Shown here: positions 3-22,958 of the stretch, in pieces | Layout: every line of letters starts with the position of its first letter | Numbering within the stretch: position 1 is the first letter of the stretch | Assembly (NCBI GenBank): GCA_026396555.1 | Contig: JAPLWO010000061.1 | Span: forward strand, 1 to 35,330 | DNA length: 35,330 bases | DNA from: Candidatus Magasanikiibacteriota bacterium | Lineage (GTDB): Bacteria > Patescibacteriota > Patescibacteriia > Magasanikbacterales > 2-02-FULL-50-9b | Direction of reading: 5' to 3' | Notes under the pieces: generated by a model | The model's database searches: none | What the model was told of the DNA's origin: nothing | What the model saw: the letters and a program-made list of their open reading frames with translations, nothing else | Made by a program: the position numbers and the translations under genes

Positions 3-344
3 CTGTGGATCGATGGCGGAACAAGCGACACAGTCGGCGCGGCTAAAAACTTTCTTAATGTAAATACATGGGCAAGCAAATGTACGTTTATGAATAATGA
101 TGAAGCGATTTGTGCAGTACCAGATCCAACCACATTAATTCGTGGTATCGGTTTTGCGCCACAACTCGCGACAGACACCAACGACACCATCTATAAAATC
201 AATATTCGAAACGGACTCCAAACAATCGTCGGGAAACCTGAAGGCAATCGCACCATTCAGACAGTGACTGTTTCGAGTGATGGCCAATACGCGTTTCTAC
301 AAGACCAAAACACGCAAGAGATCGTGAAAATGAAATTAAAATAA
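3..344 (+). CDS. C-terminal fragment of a hypothetical protein, truncated by the left window edge
   Basis: Frame 3 is open from nt 3 with no stop; LWIDGGTSDTVGAAKNFLNVNTWASKCTF precedes the tracked Met at 90. Stop TAA at 342-344 lies 1 nt before the next ATG. No family recognised. Confidence 0.5.
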   Translation: MWIDGGTSDTVGAAKNFLNVNTWASKCTFMNNDEAICAVPDPTTLIRGIGFAPQLATDTNDTIYKINIRNGLQTIVGKPEGNRTIQTVTVSSDGQYAFLQDQNTQEIVKMKLK

Positions 345-345: not shown

Positions 346-1056
346 ATGGAAGTCGCCCACCGCTGGCTGGTTAGCGCAGTTATCTTATCGATCATACTTG
401 TGTGTGGTGGAGCACTTTACCAACTACGCGATTTTTTTTCAACATCACCCACATCTCAGAAAACTGCCACCACATCCACTGATACCGGCCCACTCAAAAT
501 ACCAACAATTAAAATTACAGATCCCCAGCGCGGCAACGAACATGCCCCACTTACGATCGTATATTTTGCTGATTTCGGTTGTGAAAGTTGCGCAGGCACG
601 TGGCCAACTATTCAAGCACTTGAAGCAGACCCGCAATTTAAAAATAAGCTGCGTTTTGTTTTTAAAGATTTTCCTGCACATCAAACCATTTTTCCGGAAT
701 CACTTGAATTACATAAAGCCGCTCGATGCGCTGCATCAATGGGAAAATTCTGGGAATTTCAAGCAGCCGCATTTTCACACGTCGAAGACGTGATCATCAA
801 CCAACCGACACTAGAAAAAACAATCACTGAAACAGGACTCGATTCAACAAAAGTTCACGCATGTATAGAGTCGCCCGGTATACAAAGTATGATCGATGAT
901 AATTTTACCGAAGGACAGCGACTTGGAATTGATACAACTCCGCTATTTTTTATTGGAGAAGAACGAATCGACGGAACTACAACCTATCAGATGCTTGCAG
1001 GAAAAATTCGAACGACTCTTGCACACATTGAACAAGGTGCGCAACAAACCCAGTAG
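346..1056 (+). CDS. Membrane-anchored DsbA-like thiol:disulfide oxidoreductase (thioredoxin fold)
   Basis: N-terminal TM helix (WLVSAVILSIILVCGGALY). CxxC active site FADFGCESCAG, with CESC at nt 580-591. DsbA-like length and C-terminal TPLFFIG motif. Confidence 0.85.
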   Translation: MEVAHRWLVSAVILSIILVCGGALYQLRDFFSTSPTSQKTATTSTDTGPLKIPTIKITDPQRGNEHAPLTIVYFADFGCESCAGTWPTIQALEADPQFKNKLRFVFKDFPAHQTIFPESLELHKAARCAASMGKFWEFQAAAFSHVEDVIINQPTLEKTITETGLDSTKVHACIESPGIQSMIDDNFTEGQRLGIDTTPLFFIGEERIDGTTTYQMLAGKIRTTLAHIEQGAQQTQ

Positions 1057-1058: not shown

Positions 1059-3194
1059 ATGAAAAAAATTTTCTTTATTACAGCTTTTCTACTCTTATTT
1101 TCTGCAAACACTGCGCACGCATCTTTTTATATTCCATTATTTAACACATGTACAGGACTTGTAACAAGCCCGTGCGACAGTAATCTGAATTGTAGTGAAA
1201 TGGGATTTGGAGGTCTCGGTAGAATTTGTATTCCAAACACAGATTATTCAGCATGCGGAAACTTCGGCGATTGCACAAAAAATACAGGAAGCGGAAATAC
1301 CAAATGTGTCACCGTACAATCGATCAAAACAGGAAGTGAATTAAAATACGACATGACCTGTTTAAACACAGCAACTGCACCACAGGCGTCAAACGCAAAC
1401 TCAGCTGTGTGCGATACTTGTAAAACAAGCGAGCAGTGCGTCAAAGTTTTTGCTGATAAAAATATTGCATATCGCTGCATCGATGTACAGCTCCTCCCCC
1501 CAAAAGTACTCGACATGGGAAATGGAAGTTGTGGACAAAATGCACAATGCGCCGGAGATCAAAGTTGTGTCGAGAATACATTCACCACGAGCGGACTTAC
1601 ATACGTGTGCTACACAAAATCACTAATCGATCTTACCGGTTCATGCAATAACGTTTCGGGTCAATGTGCGTATAAAGGCGGTGGTGCGAATTCCGGAACT
1701 TGCATGAATATTTTGGATAATAACGCAAAAACTCCACATTGTTTAGACTATTCACAATTGCCAAATAGTCCAACTGCACCGACTCAAGTTGTGTGTAAAA
1801 CAAGTGCCGACTGCGCGAAATTTGGAGAAAATCAATATTGTTTACAAAATCCGGCGACCAATAAAGGACAGTGTTTTCCGCAAGCAGCAATTTTTACAGA
1901 CATGAACCAGTTGCCAAAACAACTGTGTGGAACCAACGATTGTACCTGCGGTGCACCAGGCACAACAGGTTGCAACAAAAACATTTCAGACCCTAATGGC
2001 TCAATCTGCCTACCTTATATCGATCAAGCAGGTGTCACCATCTGTGCAAACAACGCAGGAAATGGAGCAATTTTGGGAACTGGTTCAGGAGCTGCATCGG
2101 CAAATTCTACATCAGCTATCACGCCCACCGTTCCAAACCAAACATACACTGCATACGCACCAAAACTTGAAATCAGCATTCCAAATTTAACATTCGTCGA
2201 TAAAATAACTGCCGAAGATTCTTCAGTGGCTGGTTTAAAAAGATTTTCCATCCCATATCTCGCAACGTACATAAATGCAGCGTACAAATATGCAATCGGA
2301 ATGGCGGTGCTCGCCGCCGTTCTCATGATGATGTACGCAGGATTTCGATGGATGAGTTCGTTTGGGAATGAAAAAGCAGTTACGGAAGCAAAGTCACTGC
2401 TTAGTAATGCAGCTCTCGGACTTTTTATGGTTTTCAGCGCCTACACCATTTTATATTTCATTAATCCAAATCTCACTAATCTATCTTCACTGCAAATCTT
2501 GGCACCGAAGCAGGAGGTATTCAACATCGAAGATTTAACGTTCTCAGATGAAGACCATACGAGTCAGGGCACCGAAGAGAATGTGACAGTAACTCCAAGT
2601 GAATATGACAATATGTTTCAGCTGTATGCAACATGTTCAGGCATTAATTGGCAATTAATGAAAGCGGTTGCACAACACGAATCTGGACTTAAAGCAGCGA
2701 TTCACAATCCAAACAGCAGTGCCGTTGGATTGTTCCAAGCAATGGCAGGAAAAGATAACAAGACATGTAAAAATGTTTTAAGAGCTGTCAATCTCGACGC
2801 AAAATGCAACGATCCTGGATTAACTGATCCGACATTAAATACTGCATATGCATCTTTAATTTTCAAAGTATCGGTTGGAAAAATTAATGCGCTTTGTTCT
2901 AGTGCAACGACTGAAGATAAAATTTTTCTCATGTATTTTGCACACAGTAGCGGACCTGGCGCAATGGGTGCAGGTGTGAAACAATACGGATGTAACCCTG
3001 TTTCAAATGGAACTGCATGGCCAGAAAGTGGAACACTCTGGCCTGACGGAACGCCTTATAAACTTTCAGGGAAAAAAGTTTATAACGGTGCATCAAAATC
3101 ATACATCAATAAAATTGTTAAAAAAGCAACCAGCATTGGTGTTACAAATTTTAGCGGACCGAAAAATCCAACCTCCTGTCCATTACACACGTAA
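1059..3194 (+). CDS. Secreted Cys-rich protein with a VirB2/TrbC-like two-TM pilin hairpin and a C-terminal lytic transglycosylase (SLT, VirB1-like) domain
   Basis: Signal peptide MKKIFFITAFLLLFSANTAHA. About 320 aa of Cys-rich sequence. Hydrophobic hairpin YINAAYKYAIGMAVLAAVLMMMYAGFRWMSSFGNEKAVTEAKSLLSNAALGLFMVFSAYTILYFINPNL (about nt 2250-2480). SLT motif AVAQHESGLKAAIHNPNSSAVGLFQ, with the Glu codon at 2679-2681. Starts 2 nt after the dsbA-like stop. Confidence 0.85.
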   Translation: MKKIFFITAFLLLFSANTAHASFYIPLFNTCTGLVTSPCDSNLNCSEMGFGGLGRICIPNTDYSACGNFGDCTKNTGSGNTKCVTVQSIKTGSELKYDMTCLNTATAPQASNANSAVCDTCKTSEQCVKVFADKNIAYRCIDVQLLPPKVLDMGNGSCGQNAQCAGDQSCVENTFTTSGLTYVCYTKSLIDLTGSCNNVSGQCAYKGGGANSGTCMNILDNNAKTPHCLDYSQLPNSPTAPTQVVCKTSADCAKFGENQYCLQNPATNKGQCFPQAAIFTDMNQLPKQLCGTNDCTCGAPGTTGCNKNISDPNGSICLPYIDQAGVTICANNAGNGAILGTGSGAASANSTSAITPTVPNQTYTAYAPKLEISIPNLTFVDKITAEDSSVAGLKRFSIPYLATYINAAYKYAIGMAVLAAVLMMMYAGFRWMSSFGNEKAVTEAKSLLSNAALGLFMVFSAYTILYFINPNLTNLSSLQILAPKQEVFNIEDLTFSDEDHTSQGTEENVTVTPSEYDNMFQLYATCSGINWQLMKAVAQHESGLKAAIHNPNSSAVGLFQAMAGKDNKTCKNVLRAVNLDAKCNDPGLTDPTLNTAYASLIFKVSVGKINALCSSATTEDKIFLMYFAHSSGPGAMGAGVKQYGCNPVSNGTAWPESGTLWPDGTPYKLSGKKVYNGASKSYINKIVKKATSIGVTNFSGPKNPTSCPLHT

Positions 3195-3225
3195 TGGGCG
3201 TCAAATCAAAAAAACTTACGTTCAC

Positions 3226-4770
3226 ATGAAAAAATTTTTTTTCATTTTCGCCGCACTCATTTTCATCCCGACAAACTCAGTGCATGCATCACCTGGAATT
3301 TTAGAGTCCTGTTCAGGTGCGAGCATCTGTGATTCAGGCTTGCACTGTAGCGCAAAAATAACCGGAGCTGATGTCATTAGTTTTGATAAGGGGGTTTTAT
3401 GCTTACCCGAACCTGATTTCGCAGTATGTGGCCAACTTGGTAATTGCAGCAAAAACACAAATGGCGACACGTACTGCGCAACCGTACAAGCACTCAACGA
3501 CATAAGTAAATACGGCATGTCCTGTTTAAACGCGCTTGAAGTGCCACAAGCAAGTAATGCCTCTAATAACTGTACCAGCAATGCCGATTGCAAAATAAAA
3601 GGAACACAGTGTGTAAAAATCGCATCATGGACAACGGACGGCCTCGATCAACTGACCAGCGTCACACGCTGCGTTGACTTAAATAAAATACCACCAGCTG
3701 TCGTAGACCAATCATTAATTCCAGCCGCCACGGCCGGTCAAACTTTTTCACAATTTGCACCACAACTTGAAGTCTCAATTCCCGGTTTAAAATTCGACAA
3801 CCAAATCACAGCCAAAGCAACTTCAGGAACTGAGATGCGAATTTATTCAGTCCCTTATATTGCATCCTACATAAATGCAATTTATAAATATGCAATTGGC
3901 ATGGCGGTGATTATTGCAACCATCATGATTATGTTTGCCGGTTTTCTCTGGATGACATCGTTGGGTAATGCAAAAACTGCAGGCCAATCAAAACATATGA
4001 TTGGAAACGCTGCACTTGGATTAGGGCTCGCATTTGGCGCGTACACAATTTTATATATCGTAAATCCAAATTTAGTAAATTTAAATGCCATTAAAATTTT
4101 AGCACCCAAACAAGAAATTTTTTGGGTCGACCAAAGTGGTTTCGACGATGTGACCGATGGCCAAACAGATACAGCGCCTTCAGTAGCAATAACGCCTGGC
4201 CAAATTCCGCCGTTCAAACAATGTAACCCGATATGGAAAGATGTTCCCTATCTTGACAAAAATGGAAATCAGATTACATGTACAAAATATCCGATCGATA
4301 CAATTTGTACAAGCGGTTGCGGCGTCGTATCACTCGCGTCAGTTCTTGTTTATAATGGATACAGCGAAACTCCGGCGACTATAGCAGCGTGGGCTGCGGG
4401 GCTTGGCGCGCATACCTCTTGTACCGGTGGAACAAACGCACAAATGCTGTGCAACAATATTTCAACGAAATTTCCTGATTTAAAATGTACGTCACTTAAT
4501 GGAAAAGATCCTGCAGCGATTGCTGCAATTGTAAAACAAGGACATCCAGTTGATTTTTCATGTCATGCCTGTAGCGGACAAACCGCACAAAATACTCCAC
4601 GAACCTATAAAGCACACTACATGGTGATCACAGGCGTGAGCGCAGATGGACAGACGTTTGACATTTTGGACGGAGGGAGTAGTAATCCCGCGAAGGCAAT
4701 GGTAAAATTGCCGGCAAGTGAATTTACCGCAGGAAATGTGGTGAACGCGTACGTTGTGCAAAAAAAATAA
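3226..4770 (+). CDS. Paralog of the preceding gene: secreted Cys-rich protein with the same pilin-like two-TM hairpin, but a C-terminal papain-like (Peptidase C39-like) domain
   Basis: The tracked ORF begins at 3007, but an in-frame ATG at 3226 gives the signal peptide MKKFFFIFAALIFIPTNSVHA, parallel to the upstream paralog. Hairpin YINAIYKYAIGMAVIIATIMIMFAGFLWMTSLGNAKTAGQSKHMIGNAALGLGLAFGAYTILYIVNPNL (about nt 3852-4085). The C-terminal domain has the pattern Q..W, CGVVSLASVL (Cys codon 4318-4320), GHPV and HYMVITG (His codon 4615-4617). Confidence 0.8.
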   Translation: MKKFFFIFAALIFIPTNSVHASPGILESCSGASICDSGLHCSAKITGADVISFDKGVLCLPEPDFAVCGQLGNCSKNTNGDTYCATVQALNDISKYGMSCLNALEVPQASNASNNCTSNADCKIKGTQCVKIASWTTDGLDQLTSVTRCVDLNKIPPAVVDQSLIPAATAGQTFSQFAPQLEVSIPGLKFDNQITAKATSGTEMRIYSVPYIASYINAIYKYAIGMAVIIATIMIMFAGFLWMTSLGNAKTAGQSKHMIGNAALGLGLAFGAYTILYIVNPNLVNLNAIKILAPKQEIFWVDQSGFDDVTDGQTDTAPSVAITPGQIPPFKQCNPIWKDVPYLDKNGNQITCTKYPIDTICTSGCGVVSLASVLVYNGYSETPATIAAWAAGLGAHTSCTGGTNAQMLCNNISTKFPDLKCTSLNGKDPAAIAAIVKQGHPVDFSCHACSGQTAQNTPRTYKAHYMVITGVSADGQTFDILDGGSSNPAKAMVKLPASEFTAGNVVNAYVVQKK

Positions 4771-4783: not shown

Positions 4784-6127
4784 ATGTTTATCTGTTCTGA
4801 ATGCAAGGCGCGTGCACAAAAATGGTCAGGTAAATGTTTGAGCTGCAGCGCGTGGAGCAGTTTAGTTGAAGCTCCGGACGAACCGAAGAAAAAAAATGGA
4901 CGCATCGGCGGTGGATCAAACGCGGCGACCGAAACAATCGCGCTCAAATCAATTTCTTTGACGGGAGATGGCGGGGTGAAACGATTACACACCGGAATCG
5001 CATCGATCGACGAAGCGCTCGGCGGCGGCATAGTCCCCGGCTCTTTGATTTTACTCGCCGGCGAACCAGGTATCGGAAAATCCACACTTGTCATGCAAAT
5101 TGCAATCGCGGCGGGCGGCGTTTTATATATTTCAGGCGAAGAATCTGCACAGCAAGTTGGGATGCGATTAAAACGACTCGACACAAAAAATACCGGCGAC
5201 GTACAATTTATTGGTACAACAGATTACGAAACTGCGCACAACGCAATTAAATCGAGCCGACCACGCCTCGCGATCGTTGATTCGATTCAGACCATGCGCC
5301 ACCCCGATGTTCCGAGCGAACCGGGCAATGTTGCGCAAATCCGTGCGGTTGCAAATTCATTGATGGAGCTCGCGAACCAATCCGGCGTCCCAATTATTAT
5401 TATTGGCCACGTTACCAAGGATGGATCTGTCGCGGGTCCAAAAACATTAGAACATCTGGTCGACGTCGTGATCGCGATCGAAGGTGAGCGTTCGGATCGT
5501 TTGCGCTTTTTGCGCTGTTTTAAAAATCGTTTCGGCCCGACCGACGAAGTTGCGGTTTTAGAAATGCTTGAAACTGGTTTGCAGCCCGTCGCAGATCCGT
5601 CGGGATTATTACTCGAAGAGCGATCACTCCCTGTTCCTGGTTCTGTGGTTACCTGTTTGATGGATGGAAATCGTCCGATCTTGGTTGAAATTCAAGCGCT
5701 CACCACGCGTACAACATTCGGTTTTCCACAACGTCGCGCACAAGGTGTTGATAACGCGCGATTACAAATTTTACTCGCAGTGTTAGGTCGCCGCATGGGT
5801 TTGCCCGTCGACCAATTCGATGTATTCGTAAATGTAGTAGGCGGTTTATCAGCCGACGAACCAGCTGCGGATTTAGCAATTTGCATGGCAATCGCATCAT
5901 CGCTCGCAGATAAAACAATTCCGCAAACTGTTATTGCGTTTGGTGAAGTTGGTTTGTCGGGTGAAATTCGCCGTGTGAAAAATATGGATAAGCGTTTGAA
6001 AGAAGCAGAGCGCCAAGGATTTAAATTCGCGCTTGTTCCAGCTGCGAAAAATTTTCCAACGACAAAAACAATGAAGCTCGCGCCAATTGGCGATATTAAA
6101 TCTGTGCTTGAAAAAATTGAGAAATAA
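4784..6127 (+). CDS. radA: DNA repair/recombination protein RadA (Sms)
   Basis: N-terminal zinc ribbon CSECKARAQKWSGKCLSCSAW, Walker A GEPGIGKST, the RadA-specific KNRFG motif, and a Lon-protease-like C-terminal domain. Confidence 0.95.
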   Translation: MFICSECKARAQKWSGKCLSCSAWSSLVEAPDEPKKKNGRIGGGSNAATETIALKSISLTGDGGVKRLHTGIASIDEALGGGIVPGSLILLAGEPGIGKSTLVMQIAIAAGGVLYISGEESAQQVGMRLKRLDTKNTGDVQFIGTTDYETAHNAIKSSRPRLAIVDSIQTMRHPDVPSEPGNVAQIRAVANSLMELANQSGVPIIIIGHVTKDGSVAGPKTLEHLVDVVIAIEGERSDRLRFLRCFKNRFGPTDEVAVLEMLETGLQPVADPSGLLLEERSLPVPGSVVTCLMDGNRPILVEIQALTTRTTFGFPQRRAQGVDNARLQILLAVLGRRMGLPVDQFDVFVNVVGGLSADEPAADLAICMAIASSLADKTIPQTVIAFGEVGLSGEIRRVKNMDKRLKEAERQGFKFALVPAAKNFPTTKTMKLAPIGDIKSVLEKIEK

Positions 6128-6148
6128 TTTTCCACAATTTTTCCACAA
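6128..6148. repeat. Two tandem copies of the 10-mer TTTTCCACAA, with a third copy at 6255-6264
   Basis: Read directly: copies at 6128-6137, 6139-6148 and 6255-6264. The tandem pair lies just upstream of the -35 box at 6158. The third copy follows the terminator hairpin. Confidence 0.6.
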
Positions 6149-6157
6149 CACCAATAT

Positions 6158-6186
6158 TTGACACCAGGCATATGATGTTTTATAGT
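6158..6186 (+). promoter_or_regulatory. Sigma-70-like promoter, TTGACA-N17-TATAGT
   Basis: TTGACA at 6158-6163, an exact 17-nt spacer, TATAGT at 6181-6186. It points into the 3' end of the convergent toxin gene. There is no convincing + strand CDS downstream. Confidence 0.4.
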
Positions 6187-6207
6187 TTATTTACACATGG
6201 CAACTGT

Positions 6208-6648
6208 TTATTCAGAATGCCTCCGAGGCCCCAGTGAAAGCTGGGGCCGTTTGTTTTTCCACAAAATATCAGTGACACGCTGTTTAATTATTGCCAGTTG
6301 TGATGGTGGCACAGCGCCGACTTTTCTCCGCAACCGTTTGCAATCAAACATACGAAATTGCATGAGCAAAGCCGTGACTTCCCGCTCTTTTACAACTAAA
6401 GGAAACGAATAAAAACCATTCTTTTGAGAGCTCGTGAGCGGTACACCCCAAAAATAGCCACGTGTTAATCTAAGCATCACCAAAACTGGCCGCTCGAAAT
6501 TATTATTCTTTCCATCTTCTTCTACCCCAACGTTCACCCCAACCGAACAAAACCAAATATCACCATCTTGAACAAAACTTTTCCATTCACGCTTATTAAT
6601 ATCTTGTTTTAAAGTATTCCAAGAATCAAAATCTTTTTCAAAGCTCAT
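6208..6648 (-). CDS. PemK/MazF-family endoribonuclease toxin; no adjacent antitoxin ORF
   Basis: Aligns by eye to E. coli MazF. GDIWFCSVGVNVGVEEDGKNNNFERPVLVM matches GDLIWVDFDPTKGSEQAGHRPAVVLS. GVPLTSSQK matches CVPCTTQSK. VGAVPPSQLAIIKQRV matches GTVAPEELQLIKAKI. It carries extra N-terminal and C-terminal tails of about 17-25 aa. Confidence 0.8.
   Translation of the reverse strand: MSFEKDFDSWNTLKQDINKREWKSFVQDGDIWFCSVGVNVGVEEDGKNNNFERPVLVMLRLTRGYFWGVPLTSSQKNGFYSFPLVVKEREVTALLMQFRMFDCKRLRRKVGAVPPSQLAIIKQRVTDILWKNKRPQLSLGPRRHSE
6227..6258 (+). terminator. Rho-independent terminator, for the radA operon and/or the short transcript from the 6158 promoter
   Basis: GGCCCCAG (6227-6234), a 6-nt loop, CTGGGGCC (6241-6248), then GTTTGTTTTT. 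A U-run is present only on the + strand. It lies inside the 3' end of the minus-strand toxin ORF. Confidence 0.6.
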
Positions 6649-6724
6649 ATTTTTTAATCACCCATTTTACCGTCGCACACAGTTTAAAAAATGTCAACGT
6701 TTTTCGTGTGATTAACATGTGAAT

Positions 6725-6772
6725 AAAAAAATCCGACCATCTGCTCGCACGGTTTGCGAAACAAATGGCCGG
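6725..6772 (-). terminator. Rho-independent terminator of the DapD-like gene
   Basis: On the minus-strand RNA, CCGGCCAUUUG pairs with CAGAUGGUCGG (including G-U pairs) around an inner UCGCA/UGCGA stem, followed by UUUUUUU (+ strand A-run 6725-6731). The G-U pairs form only in the minus orientation. Confidence 0.6.
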
Positions 6773-6806
6773 TGTTAACCCAGAAGCGACAATTTACAAC
6801 AACAAC

Positions 6807-9273: not shown

Positions 9274-11340
9274 CTACTCCTGATGTAAAATTTCTTCAAA
9301 TCGCACGAGCCGCGCGCGCAACTCCGGGCTGTGCGCCAACACTTCTGGTTCATCGAACACTTTTTGTGCACAACGCTTTGCGCGCTCCCAAACTTCGACC
9401 GGCACAGCCAACAATTCCTCGTATTCAAAAAATCCTGATTGCAACGTTCCCCACACATCTCCGCTTCCACGCATTTCCAAATCTTTTTCCGCCAAATCAA
9501 ATCCATCCGAAATTTCTTCCATTAATTTCATGCGTTTTTCAGCAGTCGACAAATCATCGATGTTTTTCGAAATAGGTTTTCGTGACAGCAAAAATGCGTA
9601 AGATTGTTTATCGCTACGACCGACGCGTCCACGAAATTGATGCAGCTGTGCCAAACCAAATCGCTCCGCGCCTTCGATCCACATGATCGTCGCGCCCGGA
9701 ATATCAACACCAACTTCGATGACCGCAGTCGCAACTAAAATATCGAGCTCTCCCGCACGAAACGCATCCATCACTGCCGCGCGATCTTTTGGTTTTAATC
9801 GACCATGCACGAGCCCCACGCGCGCGGTCGGAAATGTTTCTTTCGAAATTTTTTCAAAAACTTCTGTCGCCGATACAACGCCGAGCGAATCCGATGGATC
9901 GATAAGTGGTGTCACGACAAAAACTTGTTCGCCGGCTGTAATATGCTGTCTTAAAAATTGCTCTGCCTTCGAACGCGCCCCCGGCCCCACCACGCGTGTG
10001 ATTACGGGTTTGCGACCTGGCGGCATTTGTTTAATTGAACTGACTGACAGCGTTCCACTCGCCAAGAGCGCGAGAGATCGCGGAATCGGCGTTGCGGTCA
10101 TTGATAAAAAATGTGGCGTATAGCCCGCGCCATTTTTTTCTTTTATTTTTTTACGCTGCCCGACGCCAAATCGATGTTGCTCATCAACGACAACCAATCC
10201 AACCTCATCGAACTTAACTGAATCTTGGATCAGCGCATGCGTGCCGATAATAATCGCTGCACCCGCCGGCGGCGCAACGCGTTTCCCCGACCCAACCATG
10301 AGCACAATCGGCCAACCCAAACCCGCAAACAATTTTTCAAATGTTTTCGCGTGCTGCTCGGCGAGCAACTGCGTTGGCGCCATACACAAAACTTTCGCGC
10401 CCGCGGTCAAAATCGGATGCGCTGCAATCGCCGCGACAACTGTTTTTCCCGAACCCACGTCCCCCTGCAACAATCGATTCATCGGCCGCTCTGTGCCGAC
10501 GTCCTGAATAATAGCCCACACCGATTTTTTCTGATCATCCGTTAACACAAACGGCAACGCCGCAACCGCGGATTTTAATTCATCGACGGAAAATGTAAAT
10601 GCGCGCGATAAACTTGCCGCGTGAAAATCAGCGATCAATCCGGCCTGCAATTCTTGCAAGAGCGCGCGCTCAAATTGAAATCGCTGAAGCGCAGCCGCCA
10701 AATCATCAAAATCTTTTGGAAAATGTGCCGCCTTCATCGCCGTCGCATACGGCGCCGCGCCCGCGATTTTTACCAGCTCTTCCGGCAACCATTCCGAAAT
10801 TGCCGAACCATATTTTTCAAACGCCGCCGCGACTAATGTTCGCAATTGTTTGTGCGACAATCCTTCGGTCAGTGAATAGAGTGGCACGATGCGCGCGCTG
10901 TGCAACGCCTCGGGCTTATTTGTTTTTTCATATTGCGGACTCACCATCTGCAACCCAAATCGATCTTGCTTAACCTCGCCAGTCAAAAAAATTTCCTCGC
11001 CAATCGCGAGCGTTTTAACTAAATATGATTGTTGAAACCACACCACACGAACTGTTCCCGAATCATCGCCGACCAGTCCCTCAATAATCGTCATCCCCAC
11101 ACGTCGCCCCGCGCGCCGTGACCGCAGCTGACGCACACGCACGCGCACCGTGGCGCTATCGCCCGCGACCAACTCCGCGACCGGTGTAATCGCCCGATGA
11201 TCCTCGTACCGAAACGGCAAATGCAAAAAAAGATCCTGAACAGTTTTCACGTCCAGTTTTTCCAAATATTTCGCGATTTTTTCCCCGCAGCCCGGAATGG
11301 TCATGACCGGCTGGGTCAATAAAATGGAGGTGTCTGACAT
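9274..11340 (-). CDS. recG: ATP-dependent DNA helicase RecG
   Basis: Wedge/OB N-terminal region, Walker A GDVGSGKT, DEQHRFG box, and helicase C motifs (QLHQFRGRVGR). Confidence 0.95.
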   Translation of the reverse strand: MSDTSILLTQPVMTIPGCGEKIAKYLEKLDVKTVQDLFLHLPFRYEDHRAITPVAELVAGDSATVRVRVRQLRSRRAGRRVGMTIIEGLVGDDSGTVRVVWFQQSYLVKTLAIGEEIFLTGEVKQDRFGLQMVSPQYEKTNKPEALHSARIVPLYSLTEGLSHKQLRTLVAAAFEKYGSAISEWLPEELVKIAGAAPYATAMKAAHFPKDFDDLAAALQRFQFERALLQELQAGLIADFHAASLSRAFTFSVDELKSAVAALPFVLTDDQKKSVWAIIQDVGTERPMNRLLQGDVGSGKTVVAAIAAHPILTAGAKVLCMAPTQLLAEQHAKTFEKLFAGLGWPIVLMVGSGKRVAPPAGAAIIIGTHALIQDSVKFDEVGLVVVDEQHRFGVGQRKKIKEKNGAGYTPHFLSMTATPIPRSLALLASGTLSVSSIKQMPPGRKPVITRVVGPGARSKAEQFLRQHITAGEQVFVVTPLIDPSDSLGVVSATEVFEKISKETFPTARVGLVHGRLKPKDRAAVMDAFRAGELDILVATAVIEVGVDIPGATIMWIEGAERFGLAQLHQFRGRVGRSDKQSYAFLLSRKPISKNIDDLSTAEKRMKLMEEISDGFDLAEKDLEMRGSGDVWGTLQSGFFEYEELLAVPVEVWERAKRCAQKVFDEPEVLAHSPELRARLVRFEEILHQE

Positions 11341-11341
11341 G

Positions 11342-11370: not shown

Positions 11371-11409
11371 TCATACACGTGCCACTCGACAGGCATCGAG
11401 GAGACATCT

Positions 11410-14820: not shown

Positions 14821-16800
14821 TTATTCCGGATTAAATTCGATCGGCACTACGCTTTCAAATGCTTCTTGCGCACCCGTTCCCTCAGCCGCAATATCACCAC
14901 TCAATCGTCCTGCAGCTGCGCTCGCGTCAAGCACATCTTGTTCCTCACGTAATTTTCGTCGCTCTTCTTCAAGTCGTAATAATTGTTGTGGATCAGTGGT
15001 CACAATTTGATCTTCATTATACGACGCGACAATTTTAATCGCCGCGTGTTTTTGTCCCGCAAAGAAAATTCCTTCACCAACCGCACTTTCAAGCAACAAA
15101 TATTTTTCTCCCTCTGTCAGTAAAAACGTTTTCACCAACGTATCAATTGCCGCCGGAGATTGTTTTAACAATAATTGAATTGATGAGTTCGTCACAATCG
15201 CCTGACCGTAGGGCGATCCCAAAAAGTCGTTCACATCTTGTGTAATCGTCGTCACACCAAGAAAATATTTACGCGCACGTTTTACCAACGCAAAAATAAA
15301 TCGCGCCGAATCTTCGTGCTGCATGAGCCACCACGCTTCATCAATCATGAGCGTACGTTTCTTACGACTTGAACGAACCACATTCCAAATGTAATTCACA
15401 ATCGTATAAATTGCAACCGGGCGCAATTCGTCTTCTAAATCACGTACACAGTAAACAACCAGCTGATTCCCCATGTCGACGTTCGTTGGATGATTGAGCA
15501 ACCCCGAAAACGTTCCTTCCGTAAACTTTTTCGTTTTAACCAACATATTTTCCGCGCCCGTCATGCCTTCAAGCACTGATTGAAAATCTCCAATCACCGG
15601 CGCTTCAACTTTCGTTAAATCTGCGTCAGGCGTAATATCTTTTTTCGCAAATGTTTCAAGCAGCGCGCGATCAAGCAGCGAATCCTCCTCGTTCGTGACC
15701 GTACCAAACATAATACGGAACAATCCTTTTAAAGTAATAACCGCGCTACGAATAATATCTTCCGTCGAAATTTGTTCACCAACTGGTCTTGGCAAATCAA
15801 ATGGATTTACTTTTGCTTCTGACGCAAGTGAAATATTAATAAATGTTCCACCCACCGCATCCGATAATTGTTTGTATTCGTATTCAGGATCAATAACAAT
15901 TACGGTCACACCAATCATCATCAAACGTAAAATTTCCAATTTAATTGCATATGATTTACCTGCACCCGATGTTGCAAATACAACTGAATTCGCGTTTTGA
16001 AGCGAAAAACGATCAAATAAAATCAAACTATTATTATGGCGATTGATGCCATACAAAATTCCATTATCACTCGTTAATTCCGCAGACATAAATGGAAATG
16101 ACGCAGCAATCGGCGACGAATTCATGTTCGCCGTAATCATGAGTTCATCATTCCCCACCGGAATCGTTGAATTAAATCCCTGCTCTGCCTGATACAAAAC
16201 TTTTTTTGTATAAATTAATTTTGATCCAAACATTCCTTCGATGTCAGCCGTCGTTTTATCAAGCTCCTCTTTCGTCTTCGAGTAAATCGTTATGTACAGC
16301 GCAAACTGAAAAAACTTTTCAGTTCCTTGGGACAACGCATCACGCAGCGCTTCAATATCACGCAGCGCCGTTTCTGCAATCGGATCACGCGGCGCACCTT
16401 TTTCTGCGGCAGATACAATTTCAGCTTCCATGAAACCCACACGTTCTTTTAATTGTTTTAAAATAATTTCTGAAGGCACCGGATAAAAGAACATGCCGAT
16501 GTCGAGTGTGAGCGGCAAATTAATAATTGGTGCAAACCAACCAACGCTAATATAGCGAGGATACGTAATCACACATAATGATCGCGCAAAAACCTCACCA
16601 ATTAAAATGTGTCCAGACTCAACTTTAAACGCGGCAGGCGCGATAATGTCTCGAATATTAACAACACCAGCGCGATAAATTCGTTCGGATTCGAGCGCTA
16701 GTCGCTCCTCAGCAATTTTTGCTTGCTGCTCGTCCTTTTTTGTCGGACGTTTTTGAGGCGCGTTAGTTGTAGCGGTTGGTGAAATGGGTTGAAATGCCAT
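14821..16800 (-). CDS. virB4: VirB4/TrsE-family type IV secretion ATPase
   Basis: Walker A ATSGAGKSY (about nt 15949-15969). VirB4-typical Walker B LMIDEAWWLM (DEAW). N-terminal VirB4-like domain (VITYPRYISVGWFAPII). Confidence 0.9.
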   Translation of the reverse strand: MAFQPISPTATTNAPQKRPTKKDEQQAKIAEERLALESERIYRAGVVNIRDIIAPAAFKVESGHILIGEVFARSLCVITYPRYISVGWFAPIINLPLTLDIGMFFYPVPSEIILKQLKERVGFMEAEIVSAAEKGAPRDPIAETALRDIEALRDALSQGTEKFFQFALYITIYSKTKEELDKTTADIEGMFGSKLIYTKKVLYQAEQGFNSTIPVGNDELMITANMNSSPIAASFPFMSAELTSDNGILYGINRHNNSLILFDRFSLQNANSVVFATSGAGKSYAIKLEILRLMMIGVTVIVIDPEYEYKQLSDAVGGTFINISLASEAKVNPFDLPRPVGEQISTEDIIRSAVITLKGLFRIMFGTVTNEEDSLLDRALLETFAKKDITPDADLTKVEAPVIGDFQSVLEGMTGAENMLVKTKKFTEGTFSGLLNHPTNVDMGNQLVVYCVRDLEDELRPVAIYTIVNYIWNVVRSSRKKRTLMIDEAWWLMQHEDSARFIFALVKRARKYFLGVTTITQDVNDFLGSPYGQAIVTNSSIQLLLKQSPAAIDTLVKTFLLTEGEKYLLLESAVGEGIFFAGQKHAAIKIVASYNEDQIVTTDPQQLLRLEEERRKLREEQDVLDASAAAGRLSGDIAAEGTGAQEAFESVVPIEFNPE

Positions 16801-16801: not shown

Positions 16802-17527
16802 CTATTCTTTTTCTACGCGCAATTGATCAGTCGGGACTAATTTTTCTGTGAGGAAAATGTCTGGGTTGTACACGGTGTAATATAGTTCAATGAGCCCTTC
16901 CGTGTCGAGCTGCTGAACCTGCAAACCCATACTCTGCATTCCGCCTAGCACCAAATTCAAACGCAAATCCAAATCTTTTTTCTGATCAAAAAATTTTTCT
17001 TCTTTTGCACGAACCGATTTTGATGGAGATAAAACTTCTGAGAAACGCTGCCAAAAACCTTTTGCTTTATTCGATCCTGGACTAAGTGGCACGACCACAA
17101 AAAAACGCTTGCTCATGATTTGGCCCAGCTCAATTAGTTCTCGGATAAACTGTCGATAATCTGAAATCTGTGTGCGCAATAATTCATTTTTCTGCACACG
17201 TTCAGACTCTTTTAATCGATCAAGATATGAATCAATATTTAATTTACGAGACTGCACCACCACCTGAATTGGAAAATCGAGTGAGTTTAAAAATCCAACA
17301 TACGCCGCAATAATTGCGTTTTGCTCATCTTCCGACTTCAGCGCAAAATTAATCGACGAAACTAAAATCACCGCACGAATCGTTCCATCTTTCATGATAA
17401 CGGTATTGTCACGAATTTCAGCAATATCTAAATATTGCTGTGTTGAAACACTCGGCTTCGGTCCCGCCAGTTTTTTACTGTTCAGTGTTTCTACTTTTGG
17501 ATTTTCTTTTTGCGAAGGAGCAGCCAT
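16802..17527 (-). CDS. Hypothetical T4SS accessory protein resembling a stand-alone VirB4 N-terminal domain
   Basis: The pattern YLDIAEIRDNTVIMKDGTIRAVILVSSINFALKSEDEQNAIIAAYVGFLNSLDFPIQVVVQS resembles N-terminal regions of Gram-positive VirB4 homologs (from memory). No NTPase motifs. Its stop lies 1 nt before the virB4 start. Confidence 0.6.
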   Translation of the reverse strand: MAAPSQKENPKVETLNSKKLAGPKPSVSTQQYLDIAEIRDNTVIMKDGTIRAVILVSSINFALKSEDEQNAIIAAYVGFLNSLDFPIQVVVQSRKLNIDSYLDRLKESERVQKNELLRTQISDYRQFIRELIELGQIMSKRFFVVVPLSPGSNKAKGFWQRFSEVLSPSKSVRAKEEKFFDQKKDLDLRLNLVLGGMQSMGLQVQQLDTEGLIELYYTVYNPDIFLTEKLVPTDQLRVEKE

Positions 17528-17533: not shown

Positions 17534-17977
17534 TTATAAAACGTCTTCTGACTCAGGCTGATACGCGCCACCTGTATTTACGATGAGCGACAATTCATTC
17601 AACCGACTCGCGCCGATGAACCGTTTATGTTCCATGTGCACCGTCGGAACAGCTTGTTCAGGATTCACGAATCGTTGAATATATTCTGTACTCAAATCTT
17701 TTTGCCACACGCGCAATTTTGGTTTGCGCAGAGTTTGAATAATATTCAGTAGAAAAAAATGAAATCCTTGACCATTCACTTTTACAAATGCAACAACGAT
17801 CGTAATGATCCCAACAGGAATCGATGCAATCACAAACCAATTAAACGCAAATAACAATTTAAAAATCGCACAGATCATCACACCAACGAAAACAATGATA
17901 AATTGTCGTGGTGTAATTGGCCCTAATAACTTTGGCTCAACATCAATGAATTGTGGAATAACAAATTGCTCTGGCAT
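17534..17977 (-). CDS. PrgI-family (VirB3-like) small T4SS membrane protein
   Basis: N-terminus MPEQFVIPQFIDVEPKLLGPITPRQF followed by two TM helices, typical of the PrgI family. It sits upstream of virB4, separated from it by one small ORF (16802-17527). Confidence 0.7.
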   Translation of the reverse strand: MPEQFVIPQFIDVEPKLLGPITPRQFIIVFVGVMICAIFKLLFAFNWFVIASIPVGIITIVVAFVKVNGQGFHFFLLNIIQTLRKPKLRVWQKDLSTEYIQRFVNPEQAVPTVHMEHKRFIGASRLNELSLIVNTGGAYQPESEDVL

Positions 17978-22893: not shown

Positions 22894-22958
22894 GTATGGT
22901 GAGAAAAATTGAAACTTCGTTGACAGTATAACACATTCGTGCGAAAGTACGTACAACT

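What the first reader, a model, noticed from the sequence alone, without database searches (positions are those of the whole stretch)
1059..4770. Tandem paralogs fuse a Cys-rich ectodomain, a VirB2/TrbC-like pilin hairpin and swapped cell-wall hydrolase domains
Seen in the sequence: the two proteins share four parts.
- A signal peptide.
- A homologous Cys-rich N-terminal module (CGNFGDCTKNTGSGNTKCVTVQ versus CGQLGNCSKNTNGDTYCATVQ; PQASNANSAVC versus PQASNASNNC).
- A conserved pre-hairpin segment (YAPKLEISIPNLTF versus FAPQLEVSIPGLKF).
- A near-identical two-helix hydrophobic hairpin (YINA.YKYAIGMAV...AGF.WM.S.GN......K....NAALGL...F.AYTILY..NPNL).

The hairpin pattern is what I associate with TrbC/VirB2-type T4SS pilins, including the small T4SS pilin family common in CPR genomes. 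Those are normally free-standing proteins of about 100 aa.

Here the C-termini differ. One carries an SLT lytic transglycosylase (ES...GLFQ). The other carries a papain-like C39-type Cys/His domain.

With a VirB2-like topology, both the Cys-rich head and the hydrolase would be extracellular. This would be a VirB1 activity physically built onto a VirB2-like anchor, duplicated with glycosidase and peptidase specificities. I do not know of a characterised example of this architecture.
Basis: partly seen in the sequence, partly recalled or inferred. Interest (0 to 1): 0.78.

Follow-up and report, generated by a model that had tools for sequence, protein, structure and literature searches.

The report
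Pilin-anchored, swappable cell-wall hydrolase pair
Two neighbouring genes of an ultrasmall (Patescibacteria) bacterium each join a secretion-system pilin-like membrane hairpin to an outward-facing cysteine-rich domain and a cell-wall-cutting enzyme. The enzyme part is exchanged like a cassette between relatives, a common but apparently undescribed design that may explain how these bacteria get their type IV secretion apparatus through a cell wall.

Summary
Genes A (1059-3194, 711 aa) and B (3226-4770, 514 aa) are paralogs. Each has:
- a signal peptide;
- a disulfide-type Cys-rich N-domain (30 and 12 Cys);
- a conserved pre-hairpin motif;
- a two-helix hairpin that Pfam places in T4SS_pilin PF18895 (A above the curated cut-off);
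- a conserved ILAPKQE junction;
- unrelated C-termini: SLT lytic transglycosylase in A (Glu541) and a papain-like C39_2 peptidase in B (Cys365/His464).

New findings:
1. The block propeller-like gene, dsbA, fusion, fusion, radA recurs in four independent Magasanikbacteria loci. It lies next to recG, comF, virB4, trsD and prgI.
2. These two genes are the only pilin-like genes in the neighbourhood.
3. The C-terminal enzyme is a swappable cassette. Loci collinear at 83-90% DNA identity lose all similarity exactly after the junction motif. Nine or more cassette classes were seen, and nearly all the recognisable ones are peptidoglycan hydrolases.
4. The hairpin-plus-cargo design is widespread in metagenomes, so it is not unique. 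I found no paper describing it.

Best reading: pilin-anchored VirB1-equivalents of the Patescibacterial T4SS. They are a Rosetta-stone fusion of components that are separate, essential genes in Southlakia epibionticum. Whether they act on the cell's own wall or the host's, and whether they enter a pilus, is open. The link to canonical VirB2 is weak.

The parts
3..344 (+). 3' end (last 113 codons) of a conserved ~418-aa PD40/beta-propeller-like gene that always precedes dsbA in related loci. It is cut by the contig end.
   Evidence: 65% identity to L001 8082-9338. Weak PD40/beta-propeller Pfam hits. Same position in L001, L002, L003, L007, L008 and L009.
346..1056 (+). DsbA-like thioredoxin-fold oxidoreductase with an N-terminal membrane anchor. 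Its stop codon lies 2 nt before gene A. It is the presumed oxidant for the Cys-rich ectodomains.
   Evidence: Thioredoxin_4 76.9 bits and DSBA 39.1 bits. Conserved immediately upstream of the fusion genes in every related locus.
1059..3194 (+). Gene A (711 aa): signal peptide, Cys-rich ectodomain, pilin-like hairpin, SLT lytic transglycosylase.
1059..1121 (+). A signal peptide (aa 1-21, MKK...TAHA|S).
   Evidence: Read from the sequence: n-region KK, hydrophobic core, A-x-A at positions -3/-1. AF2 helix 2-14. A heuristic call, not SignalP.
1122..2153 (+). A Cys-rich N-terminal ectodomain (aa 22-365): 30 Cys in repeated ~4-Cys beta-hairpin modules, followed by a low-complexity linker.
   Evidence: Cys map. 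Cys columns nearly invariant in 20 homologs. AF2 shows beta-hairpins at pLDDT 70-84 for aa 170-340. No PDB analogue found.
2154..2195 (+). A pre-hairpin motif YAPKLEISIPNLTF (aa 366-379), family consensus P.LQI.IP.L.F.
   Evidence: P368, P375, L377 and F379 are invariant and conserved in 34 diverse relatives. The motif is mostly absent from free-standing small pilins.
2253..2462 (+). A pilin-like two-helix transmembrane hairpin (aa 399-468) with no Cys. The inter-helix loop carries the nearly invariant Lys445.
   Evidence: PF18895 at aa 402-468, 33.6 bits against cut-off 26.6. AF2 helices 399-433 and 438-468 at pLDDT 75-82. Hydropathy peaks at 407-431 and 447-469.
2460..2522 (+). A post-hairpin junction INPNL...LQILAPKQEVF (aa 468-488). 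Cassette exchange happens directly after it.
   Evidence: Conserved in 20 of 21 family members. The DNA similarity breakpoint falls at codon ~511 of the homologs, directly after this motif.
2616..2981 (+). A SLT lytic transglycosylase domain (aa 520-641). Catalytic Glu541 (HES) is at nt 2679-2681 and GLFQ is at aa 557-560.
   Evidence: PF01464, 34.7 bits against cut-off 21.3. ES and GLxQ are conserved in 8 SLT-bearing relatives. The AF2 model is poor here (pLDDT below 50).
3226..4770 (+). Gene B (514 aa): signal peptide, shorter Cys-rich ectodomain (12 Cys), pilin-like hairpin, papain-like C39_2 peptidase.
3226..3288 (+). B signal peptide (aa 1-21, MKK...SVHA|S).
   Evidence: Read from the sequence. 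AF2 helix 2-13.
3289..3753 (+). B Cys-rich N-terminal ectodomain (aa 22-176): three 4-Cys modules homologous to the first modules of A.
   Evidence: 40% identity to A aa 1-152. Cys map. AF2 beta-hairpins at pLDDT ~80 for aa 80-160.
3754..3795 (+). B pre-hairpin motif FAPQLEVSIPGLKF (aa 177-190).
   Evidence: P179 and F190 are invariant; P186 and L188 are nearly invariant (at least 90%).
3853..4062 (+). B pilin-like two-helix hairpin (aa 210-279).
   Evidence: AF2 helices 210-243 and 249-279 at pLDDT 74-82. 53% identity to the A hairpin. PF18895 18.1 bits and TrbC 16.4 bits, both below cut-off.
4060..4122 (+). B post-hairpin junction VNPNL...IKILAPKQEIF (aa 279-299).
4240..4665 (+). B Peptidase_C39_2 papain-like domain (aa 339-480). 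Cys365 (SGCG) is at nt 4318-4320, His464 (AHYMV) at nt 4615-4617, and Asp481 follows.
   Evidence: PF13529, 45.6 bits against cut-off 24. Cys, His and Asp are conserved in 9 relatives. Foldseek top hit is 3ERV, a C39-like peptidase, at E 1.9e-4, followed by cathepsins and staphopain.
4784..6127 (+). radA, 13 nt downstream of B. It is the last gene of the apparent operon.
   Evidence: Pfam AAA_25, Zn_ribbon, ChlI and Lon_C. Same position in related loci.
6227..6248 (+). Terminator-like GC-rich hairpin plus T-run, the first strong one after dsbA, A, B and radA.
   Evidence: 9-bp stem with 7 GC pairs and tail GTTTGTTTTT. This is a consensus match only.
9274..11340 (-). recG, part of the conserved neighbourhood.
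   Evidence: RecG_wedge 106 bits plus DEAD/Helicase_C. Synteny. ABY1 T4SS loci are reported to include recG, radA and comF (PMC12102498).
13801..14400 (-). comF-like phosphoribosyltransferase.
   Evidence: TIGR00201 comF at E 6.8e-19, below its curated cut-off.
14821..16800 (-). VirB4-type T4SS ATPase.
   Evidence: NF045971 conju_CD1110, 342.8 bits against cut-off 325. P-loop_TraG 91.6 bits.
16802..17527 (-). TrsD-like protein, equivalent to the N-terminal part of VirB4 but encoded as a separate gene.
   Evidence: Matches the N-terminal regions of VirB4 models and TrsD (E 3e-10 and 5e-6, below cut-offs). The L002 ortholog is marked TraC-like.
17534..17977 (-). PrgI (VirB3-like) membrane protein.
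   Evidence: PF12666, 31.7 bits against cut-off 27.
19819..22956 (-). 1045-aa polytopic membrane protein with a long hydrophilic tail. It is a candidate extended VirB6, not verified.
   Evidence: Position and hydrophobic N-half read from the translation. No Pfam or NCBIfam hit.

Best explanation
A and B are a conserved tandem pair of Sec-exported membrane proteins. In each, a VirB2-like (PF18895) pilin hairpin carries two extracellular loads:
- an N-terminal disulfide-stapled stalk or head, oxidised by the DsbA encoded 2 nt upstream;
- a C-terminal peptidoglycan hydrolase. A cuts the glycan strand (SLT, Glu541). B cuts peptide or amide bonds (papain-like Cys365/His464).

They belong to the ABY1-type Patescibacterial T4SS neighbourhood: propeller-like gene, dsbA, A, B, radA, recG, comF, virB4, trsD, prgI.

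Proposed mechanism:
1. The hairpin inserts in the membrane and docks at the T4SS as ordinary VirB2-like pilins do.
2. That places a glycosidase plus peptidase pair exactly where the apparatus or pilus must cross a wall.
3. The pair therefore supplies the VirB1 function that surveys report as mostly missing next to Patescibacterial virB2 and virB4.
4. Because the enzyme cassette is replaced by recombination right after the ILAPKQE junction while everything else stays collinear, the substrate is probably variable. The partner or host wall is a more likely target than the cell's own wall.

Shown: the architecture, homology, catalytic residues, synteny and cassette exchange. Inferred: outside topology, T4SS docking and the VirB1 role. 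Speculative: host wall as the target and incorporation into a pilus.
For: Architecture and paralogy.

Outside topology:
- AxA signal peptides, two hydrophobic helices, zero Cys in the hairpin against 30 and 12 Cys in the N-domains.
- AF2 helices 399-433/438-468 in A and 210-243/249-279 in B.
- dsbA directly upstream in all loci.

Active enzymes: catalytic residues are conserved in relatives, and B has a papain-like fold.

T4SS link:
- VirB4 and PrgI score above curated cut-offs in the window.
- The gene order is identical in L001-L003.
- A and B are the only hairpin-bearing ORFs in the window and in the fetched parts of the related loci, about 11-22 kb each.
- ABY1 T4SS loci are reported to contain radA, recG and comF, and most VirB2-bearing genomes are reported to lack VirB1 (PMC12102498).

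Rosetta-stone logic:
- In S. epibionticum the T4SS cluster holds separate genes: multi-domain lysozyme/Cys-protease and M15-like genes (the latter reported as essential by PMC12102498) plus small PF18895 pilins that are marked essential (Wang 2023 supplement).
- In classical MPF_T operons virB1 (a lytic transglycosylase) and virB2 are adjacent genes.

A glycosidase plus peptidase pairing mirrors the two-domain hydrolases of Gram-positive T4SSs (established knowledge; cited in PMC12102498).

Cassette exchange:
- P0011 and P0014 are 90% identical over 508 aa of the N-part with unrelated C-parts. P0003 and P0004 are 92% identical over 512 aa with unrelated C-parts.
- DNA of L001 and L007 is collinear at 83-90% except nt 11535-12371, starting at codon ~511.
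- Cassettes seen: SLT, Amidase_2, VanY/M15, M15_4, C39_2, NlpC/P60, glucosaminidase, M23 and 3D.
Against: - The genes lie about 10 kb from virB4, with radA, a MazF-like gene, a dapD-like gene, an EamA transporter gene, recG and tRNAs in between. The link rests on conserved synteny, not on a shared operon.
- Nobody has shown that PF18895 proteins form a pilus or touch a T4SS.
- Similarity to bona fide VirB2 is not significant, and Foldseek gave no pilin match.
- Both AF2 models have low overall confidence (mean pLDDT 61.7 and 54.7), and the SLT region is unmodelled.
- C39_2 enzymes are not proven peptidoglycan peptidases.
- Topology was not run through a dedicated predictor.
- A roughly 60-kDa load on both termini is hard to reconcile with packing into a VirB2-type filament.
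- Cassette turnover could also reflect changes in the cell's own wall chemistry.
Confidence: 0.6

Rival explanations
1. These are housekeeping autolysins. The proteins remodel the bacterium's own wall for growth and division, and the pilin-like hairpin is only a convenient two-helix membrane anchor with no T4SS connection.
For: Every walled bacterium needs such enzymes. The genes are about 10 kb from virB4 with unrelated genes in between. Only about 58% of Patescibacterial assemblies with VirB2-like genes have one near virB4 (1135 of 1948; PMC12102498).
Against: The anchor is specifically the PF18895 fold, not a generic transmembrane helix. The whole block from dsbA to virB4 is syntenic across loci. 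No other pilin-like gene accompanies the T4SS here. Housekeeping enzymes are not expected to have their catalytic domain replaced between genomes that are otherwise 83-90% identical.
Confidence: 0.15
2. This is a polymorphic effector system. The Cys-rich head plus pilin module is a conserved delivery vehicle. The C-terminal enzyme is a warhead released or presented to degrade the wall of a host or competitor, by analogy with CdiA, Rhs or LXG toxins and with evolved VgrG spikes carrying lysozyme domains.
For: There is a sharp recombination junction after a conserved motif, with at least 9 cassette classes among 21 close relatives. Occasional cargo is not a wall hydrolase: Metallophos, Exo_endo_phos, GDSL lipase, FGE-sulfatase and Big_5. 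The epibiotic lifestyle needs access through a host wall. A ~9 nm tube or 'lance' with a barbed tip has been seen between a Patescibacterium and its host (PMC11880426).
Against: No immunity-gene-sized ORF follows either cassette: the gaps are 31 nt and 13 nt. No orphan cassettes were seen. Nearly all recognisable cargo is a peptidoglycan hydrolase. There is no evidence of cleavage or release. The lance was seen in a different class (Saccharimonadia relatives), and its composition is unknown.
Confidence: 0.2
3. This is a pilin polyprotein precursor. The similar APK(L/Q)E(I/V) motifs on both sides of the hairpin are processing sites. Cleavage there would release a normal ~110-aa pilin plus free soluble Cys-rich and hydrolase proteins.
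For: The motif recurs before the hairpin (APKLEI in A, APQLEV in B) and after it (APKQEV in A, APKQEI in B). Canonical TrbC/VirB2 propilins are trimmed at both ends (established knowledge, not tested here).
Against: AF2 predicts both motifs as beta-strands next to the hairpin, which fits a structural clasp as well as a cleavage site. In the wider family only P.LQI.IP.L.F and INP.L are conserved, not APKQE. No protease gene is associated with the pair.
Confidence: 0.05

Closest known systems
PF18895 T4SS_pilin: small VirB2-like pilins of Patescibacteria (for example the essential pilin array SEML1_0014-0019 of Southlakia epibionticum)
   Same: Homologous signal peptide plus two-helix hairpin. 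A scores above the Pfam cut-off. A profile of the module retrieves about 90 free-standing 100-240-aa PF18895 proteins. Both are encoded in T4SS neighbourhoods.
   Different: The small pilins are about 100-240 aa and match the module profile only from about position 40 onward, so they lack the pre-hairpin motif. A and B add a 150-350-aa Cys-rich ectodomain, the pre-hairpin and junction motifs, and a ~220-aa enzyme.
TrbC/VirB2 pilins of Gram-negative T4SSs (PF04956; Agrobacterium VirB2)
   Same: Signal peptide, helix-loop-helix membrane hairpin with a basic loop, and a gene adjacent to virB1 in classical operons. hhalign aligns TM1 to TM1 and TM2 to TM2.
   Different: Sequence similarity is not significant: 16.4 bits against cut-off 27.9, and hhalign probability 5%. 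VirB2 is about 100-120 aa before processing and carries no enzyme.
VirB1-type cell-wall hydrolases of Gram-positive T4SSs (TraG of pIP501, PrgK of pCF10, CwlT of ICEBs1)
   Same: Membrane-anchored and extracytoplasmic. They combine a glycan-cleaving domain (SLT or muramidase) with a Cys-His peptidase, and they are linked to a VirB4-type system of the MPF-FATA kind (PMC12102498).
   Different: Those proteins carry both activities in one polypeptide behind a simple N-terminal anchor. Here the two activities are split over two paralogs, each built on a pilin hairpin with a Cys-rich head. The peptidase is C39_2-type rather than CHAP or NlpC, and the catalytic domains are exchanged between strains.
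Polymorphic toxin systems and 'evolved' secretion-apparatus components (CdiA, Rhs, LXG; VgrG or PAAR with C-terminal lysozyme or peptidase domains)
   Same: A conserved N-terminal structural or delivery part, a conserved junction motif, and recombinational replacement of the C-terminal catalytic domain. A structural protein of a secretion machine is fused to a wall-degrading enzyme.
   Different: No immunity genes are present. The cargo is almost exclusively peptidoglycan hydrolases. The carrier is a T4SS pilin-like hairpin, which to my knowledge has not been reported as a carrier.
S. epibionticum T4SS-cluster hydrolases SEML1_0006 (glucosaminidase + phage-tail lysozyme + Cys proteinase) and SEML1_0007 (M15B-like)
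   Same: Peptidoglycan hydrolases encoded beside virB4 and PF18895 pilins in a Patescibacterial T4SS cluster whose hydrolases and pilins are reported as essential. The enzyme classes match the cassettes seen here.
   Different: They are separate genes with no pilin domain listed in the published annotation table. In the present lineage the pilin and the hydrolase are one polypeptide.

Membership tests
PF18895 T4SS_pilin (Patescibacterial VirB2-like pilins) | Profile match at or above Pfam's gathering score | tested here: met
   A scores 33.6 bits against cut-off 26.6, aa 402-468 covering profile positions 6-71 of 71. B alone scores 18.1 bits (not met) but is 49-53% identical to A over the hairpin, E 6e-52. 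149 of 161 relatives hit PF18895.
PF18895 T4SS_pilin (Patescibacterial VirB2-like pilins) | Signal peptide followed by two long hydrophobic helices joined by a short loop | tested here: met
   Hydropathy and AxA sites. AF2 helices of 31-35 residues with loops of 4-5 residues at pLDDT 75-82. No dedicated topology predictor was available.
PF18895 T4SS_pilin (Patescibacterial VirB2-like pilins) | Small free-standing protein (~100-200 aa) | tested here: not met
   A is 711 aa and B is 514 aa. Free-standing relatives have a median length of 155 aa.
PF18895 T4SS_pilin (Patescibacterial VirB2-like pilins) | Encoded near virB4 | tested here: inconclusive
   The genes lie about 10 kb, roughly 10 genes, from virB4. 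That is inside the +/-20-CDS window used by PMC12102498, and the arrangement is syntenic in L002. Unrelated genes intervene.
PF18895 T4SS_pilin (Patescibacterial VirB2-like pilins) | Polymerises into a T4SS pilus | not testable with these tools
   No experimental data exist for any family member. The role of the T4SS in Saccharibacteria (the cultivated Patescibacteria) is described as completely unknown (PMC11665869).
TrbC/VirB2 (PF04956) | Profile match at or above the gathering score | tested here: not met
   B scores 16.4 bits against cut-off 27.9. A has no hit.
TrbC/VirB2 (PF04956) | Profile-profile or structural similarity to bona fide VirB2 | tested here: inconclusive
   hhalign of the module profile A5 against three annotated VirB2/TrbC proteins gave E 0.0075 and probability 5%, with a sensible register. 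A PDB sequence search gave no hit. Foldseek returned only generic helical hits.
SLT lytic transglycosylase (PF01464) | Profile match above cut-off, with the catalytic Glu-Ser and GLxQ motifs | tested here: met
   34.7 bits against cut-off 21.3. HES (Glu541) and GLFQ (aa 557-560) are conserved in 8 relatives. The fold was not confirmed (pLDDT below 50).
Peptidase_C39_2 (PF13529, papain-like) | Profile match above cut-off, a Cys/His(/Asp) triad, and a papain-like fold | tested here: met
   45.6 bits against cut-off 24. Cys365, His464 and Asp481 are conserved in 9 relatives. Foldseek: 3ERV at E 1.9e-4, then cathepsins and staphopain, at moderate model confidence.
VirB1-type T4SS cell-wall hydrolases of monoderms (TraG/PrgK/CwlT) | Extracytoplasmic glycosidase plus Cys-His peptidase activities, membrane-anchored | tested here: met
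   SLT in A and a papain-like peptidase in B, both behind a membrane hairpin. The two activities sit on two polypeptides rather than one.
VirB1-type T4SS cell-wall hydrolases of monoderms (TraG/PrgK/CwlT) | Sequence membership in the TrsG/CD419/VirB1 profiles used to define the family | not tested
VirB1-type T4SS cell-wall hydrolases of monoderms (TraG/PrgK/CwlT) | Required for T4SS function | not testable with these tools
   This needs genetics in a cultivable relative.
Polymorphic toxin systems | Conserved N-terminal part, a conserved junction, and unrelated C-terminal domains in close relatives | tested here: met
   N-parts are 90-92% identical with unrelated C-parts. The DNA similarity breakpoint falls at codon ~511, right after ILAP(K/E)QE.
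Polymorphic toxin systems | Cognate immunity gene immediately downstream | tested here: not met
   There are 31 nt between A and B and 13 nt between B and radA. The same tight spacing holds in L001-L003, L007 and L008.

The most novel reading that the evidence does not exclude
These are 'armed pilins'. The hairpin is incorporated at the tip, at the base, or sparsely along a VirB2-type T4SS tube. The filament then carries its own glycosidase and peptidase (and a Cys-rich adhesive head) and drills through the partner cell's wall. The enzyme cassette is swapped to match the partner's peptidoglycan chemistry. This would give a molecular identity to the barbed ~9-nm 'lance' or conduit seen by cryo-ET between a Patescibacterium and its host. 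Together with the co-transcribed radA and the nearby recG and comF, it would point to DNA or nutrient acquisition through that conduit.
Probability: 0.15. Interest if true: 0.9.

Novelty: new variant of a known kind. Interest (0 to 1): 0.68.

Why it matters
Reviews describe the T4SS of Patescibacteria as essential for epibiotic growth in the one genetically tractable species, yet its function is 'completely unknown' (PMC11665869; PMC12857230). A phylum-wide survey noted abundant VirB2-like pilins but few VirB1 hydrolases near virB4 (PMC12102498).

A large family in which the pilin module and the wall hydrolase are one polypeptide has three consequences.
1. It explains part of the 'missing VirB1'.
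2. It gives Rosetta-stone evidence that pilin and hydrolase act together.
3. It offers a polymorphic, easily typed marker (the cassette) that may track partner or host wall chemistry.

The hypotheses are directly testable with recombinant domains, and the case adds a T4SS example to the general theme of envelope-piercing machines that carry their own lysins.

Tried and rejected
- PDB sequence searches with the two C-terminal domains and with the module profile gave no hits, even at E up to 10 for the profile.
- Foldseek with the model of A found nothing significant. The N-domain has no PDB analogue and the hairpin drew only generic helical matches, so the VirB2 fold test was uninformative.
- hhalign of the module against three genuine VirB2/TrbC proteins was inconclusive.
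- tblastn of a small CPR pilin that hits both PF18895 and PF04956 against plasmids found no match.
- The RP4 record was not in the plasmid collection.
- The search for related loci with the diverse module alignment failed for lack of a conserved stretch.
- The search for related loci with the close family found only three loci in species-representative genomes. No phylum-wide context census was therefore possible.
- The third protein search returned only proteins of 240 aa or fewer, which was useful for free-standing pilins but not for a fusion census.
- I looked for a consistent gene-1 versus gene-2 orthology across loci. The hairpin identities do not separate the two positions.
- I looked for a third paralog. 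The 771-773-aa genes after recG in L001 and L003 have no hairpin.
- I looked for an immunity ORF and found none.
- Literature searches for any description of pilin-hydrolase fusions found nothing. The library excludes most subscription-journal papers, so absence there is not proof.

Full report
**1. What is in the sequence**

The window is a whole 35,330-nt contig of a Candidatus Magasanikbacteria MAG, which belongs to the Patescibacteria/Parcubacteria group.

On the + strand, five genes lie 2-31 nt apart:
- the 3' end of a conserved PD40/beta-propeller-like gene (3-344);
- a DsbA-like oxidoreductase (346-1056);
- gene A (1059-3194, 711 aa);
- gene B (3226-4770, 514 aa);
- radA (4784-6127).

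The first strong terminator-like hairpin follows radA at 6227-6248. Gene B is listed as an ORF from 3007. Its signal peptide begins at the ATG at 3226, and the public protein is 514 aa.

**2. Check of the observation**

A and B are 49% identical over 164 aa spanning the pre-hairpin, hairpin and junction (E 6e-52). They are 40% identical over the N-terminal ~160 aa (E 1e-20). After the motif ILAPKQE they show no similarity.

Pfam gives the following:
- A: T4SS_pilin PF18895 at 33.6 bits (cut-off 26.6) and SLT at 34.7 bits (cut-off 21.3).
- B: Peptidase_C39_2 at 45.6 bits (cut-off 24). T4SS_pilin scores 18.1 bits and TrbC/VirB2 16.4 bits, both below cut-off.

Other features support the description:
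- Both proteins start with MKK, a hydrophobic core and (A/V)HA|S.
- The mature N-domains carry 30 Cys (A) and 12 Cys (B) in repeating ~4-Cys modules. The hairpins carry none.
- AF2 predicts two long antiparallel helices in each: 399-433/438-468 in A and 210-243/249-279 in B, at pLDDT 75-82. Short beta-strands at the pre- and post-hairpin motifs flank the helices, and the N-domain is built of beta-hairpins. Overall confidence is low, with mean pLDDT 54.7 and 61.7.
- The catalytic residues are present and conserved in relatives: Glu541 in HES plus GLFQ in A, and Cys365 (SGCG), His464 (AHYMV) and Asp481 in B.
- The C-terminal domain of B finds a C39-like peptidase (3ERV, E 1.9e-4) and then papain-family proteases in the PDB.

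**3. Context**

On the - strand, about 10 kb downstream, lies a monoderm-type T4SS set:
- comF-like (13801-14400);
- VirB4 (14821-16800; NF045971, 342.8 bits against cut-off 325);
- a TrsD-like gene equivalent to the N-terminal part of VirB4 (16802-17527);
- PrgI/VirB3-like (17534-17977; 31.7 bits against cut-off 27);
- an unknown 609-aa gene;
- a 1045-aa polytopic protein that may be an extended VirB6 (unverified).

recG lies between this set and radA.

A six-frame search finds no other pilin-like hairpin on the contig.

Loci fetched for the homologs P0011, P0005 and P0017 show the same order: propeller-like gene, dsbA, fusion, fusion, radA, recG. In L002 the order continues with comF, virB4, a TraC/TrsD-like gene and prgI. 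Each has exactly two hairpin genes. A published survey states that ABY1-class T4SS loci commonly include comF, recG and radA (PMC12102498). The pair is therefore part of a conserved T4SS-associated neighbourhood, although it is not in the virB4 operon itself.

**4. The family**

Close homologs (36-48% identity, 730-790 aa) share the N-domain, hairpin and junction but carry different C-termini. These include Peptidase_M15_4, C39_2, Amidase_2 and VanY, a weak NlpC/P60-like hit, and three classes without a Pfam match. Some of the unmatched classes show Cys...His motifs.

An exhaustive search with the 143-aa module found 19,597 cluster representatives at E<=1e-3 and 2,121 at E<=1e-10.

I then examined the 166 proteins collected so far, which are mostly the best-scoring of those representatives.
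- 146 carry a single hairpin. Of these, 135 have a C-terminal extension of at least 150 aa (median 231 aa).
- The recognisable domains are overwhelmingly wall hydrolases: SLT 14, VanY 13, C39_2 13, Amidase_2 12, Peptidase_M15 11, M15_4 9, NlpC/P60 4, glucosaminidase 4, 3D 4 and M23 3.
- There are single cases of Metallophos, Exo_endo_phos, GDSL lipase and Big_5.

Free-standing PF18895 pilins (median 155 aa) match only the hairpin part of the module profile. They mostly lack the pre-hairpin motif P.LQI.IP.L.F. The fusions therefore form a recognisable subfamily of the pilin family.

**5. Cassette exchange**

P0011 and P0014 are 90% identical over the first 508 aa and unrelated afterwards. P0003 and P0004 are 92% identical over 512 aa and then unrelated.

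At the DNA level, L001 and L007 are collinear at 82.8% identity from clpB to nt 11534. That position is codon ~511 of the first fusion gene, directly after ILAPEQE. The two loci then share nothing for about 840 nt. Similarity resumes at 90% identity through the second fusion gene and radA. L008 and L009 break at the same codon.

This is in-situ replacement of the catalytic domain at a conserved junction. No ORF of immunity-gene size follows any cassette.

**6. How it most likely works**

*Shown:* the modular architecture, the conservation of catalytic residues, the conserved operon with dsbA, the synteny with the T4SS, and cassette exchange.

*Inferred:*
- After Sec export and signal-peptide cleavage, the N-domain is outside and is oxidised by the adjacent DsbA.
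- Helix 1 crosses inward, the short Lys-bearing loop is cytoplasmic, and helix 2 crosses outward.
- This places the hydrolase outside, next to its substrate.
- Because the anchor is the pilin fold of this T4SS type, and no other pilin gene is nearby, the proteins plausibly dock where pilins dock.
- They would then provide a local glycan-plus-peptide cutting activity, which is the VirB1 function.

Three comparisons support this reading:
- Classical operons place virB1 and virB2 side by side.
- S. epibionticum has separate hydrolase genes and small pilins in its T4SS cluster, reported as essential.
- The Patescibacteria survey found that most VirB2-bearing genomes lack a detectable VirB1.

The fusion is a Rosetta stone for that partnership.

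*Speculative:* rapid cassette turnover suggests a variable substrate, such as a partner's wall. The co-transcribed radA, together with recG and comF, hints at DNA traffic.

I put the pilin-anchored, T4SS-linked hydrolase reading at about 0.6. The architecture and extracytoplasmic enzyme assignments stand at about 0.85 or higher, and host targeting at about 0.35.

**7. Rivals**

- Housekeeping autolysins with a borrowed anchor (0.15).
- A polymorphic effector system (0.2). This overlaps with the best explanation and differs in whether the enzyme is a delivered warhead.
- A pilin polyprotein cleaved at the repeated APK(L/Q)E motifs (0.05).

Evidence for and against each is given in the structured fields.

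**8. Comparison with known systems and novelty**

Tested membership:
- PF18895: the profile test is met for A. The 'small free-standing protein' feature is not met.
- PF04956 TrbC/VirB2: not met by profile. Inconclusive by hhalign (E 0.0075, probability 5%, sensible register) and by Foldseek.
- SLT and C39_2: met.
- Polymorphic toxins: the junction and cassette feature is met; the immunity-gene feature is not.
- VirB1-type hydrolases of monoderms: a functional analogy only. Their defining profiles were not available.

I found no description of pilin-hydrolase fusions in the searchable literature. The checks included the dedicated Patescibacteria T4SS survey, a 2025 T4SS review and the Southlakia genetics paper. 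That library omits most subscription-journal papers.

The proteins are publicly deposited and auto-named 'transglycosylase SLT domain-containing protein' and 'C39 family peptidase'. I therefore rate this a new variant of known kinds (T4SS pilins and T4SS wall hydrolases). It is common rather than unique, and apparently unrecognised.

**9. Limits**

- No dedicated topology or signal-peptide predictor was available.
- The AF2 models are of low to moderate confidence, built from alignments of 20-23 sequences.
- The SLT fold was not modelled.
- The census is restricted to the top ~150 representatives and to four independent syntenic loci.
- No experimental evidence exists that any PF18895 protein forms a pilus.

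Noticed in passing
Proteins P0031, P0034, P0041-P0043, P0049, P0080, P0098, P0110 and others: Some relatives contain 2-8 tandem copies of the pilin hairpin in one polypeptide (for example P0041, 820 aa, 8 copies). These appear to be pilin arrays fused into single genes. They account for the strong TrbC/VirB2 Pfam hits (E down to 1e-28) seen.
   Followed up: partly
P0164 (580 aa), P0020 (664 aa), and single hits in alignments A1/A2: The same hairpin module occasionally carries cargo that is not a wall hydrolase: FGE-sulfatase (PF03781), a Big_5 Ig-like domain, Metallophos, Exo_endo_phos and GDSL lipase.
   Followed up: no
window 25057-33153 (-), 33159-33857 (-) and 24128-24982 (+): A 2,698-aa secreted protein with many Cys and no Pfam match is followed by a TSP3-repeat protein. 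Nearby lies a 284-aa signal-peptide protein with several Cys. These may be further disulfide-dependent surface proteins of the same cell.
   Followed up: no
window 6208-6648 (-) and 6000-12000: A PemK/MazF-like toxin gene has no obvious partner ORF. GC content rises from about 0.42 to about 0.50 across 6-12 kb, a stretch that holds the dapD-like gene, the EamA transporter gene and recG.
   Followed up: no
window 16802-17527 (-): The region equivalent to the N-terminus of VirB4 is encoded as a separate TrsD-like gene directly upstream of the ATPase gene. VirB4 is therefore split here.
   Followed up: partly
L009 4094-7574: One related locus has a single fusion gene, followed by a YibE_F membrane protein gene instead of a second fusion gene and radA. 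The tandem pair is therefore common but not universal.
   Followed up: no
L006 (CAZUSU010000006.1): A contig carrying a member of this family is labelled 'uncultured Gammaproteobacteria bacterium'. This looks like a mis-binned Patescibacterial contig.
   Followed up: no
L001 18155-20470 (-) and L003 17992-20313 (-): A 771-773-aa gene with no Pfam match and no hairpin sits after recG in two related loci. It is absent at that position in the window.
   Followed up: partly
window 11488-11994 (-): A 168-aa mechanical ORF overlaps tRNA-Arg (11933-12009) and is probably not a gene.
   Followed up: no
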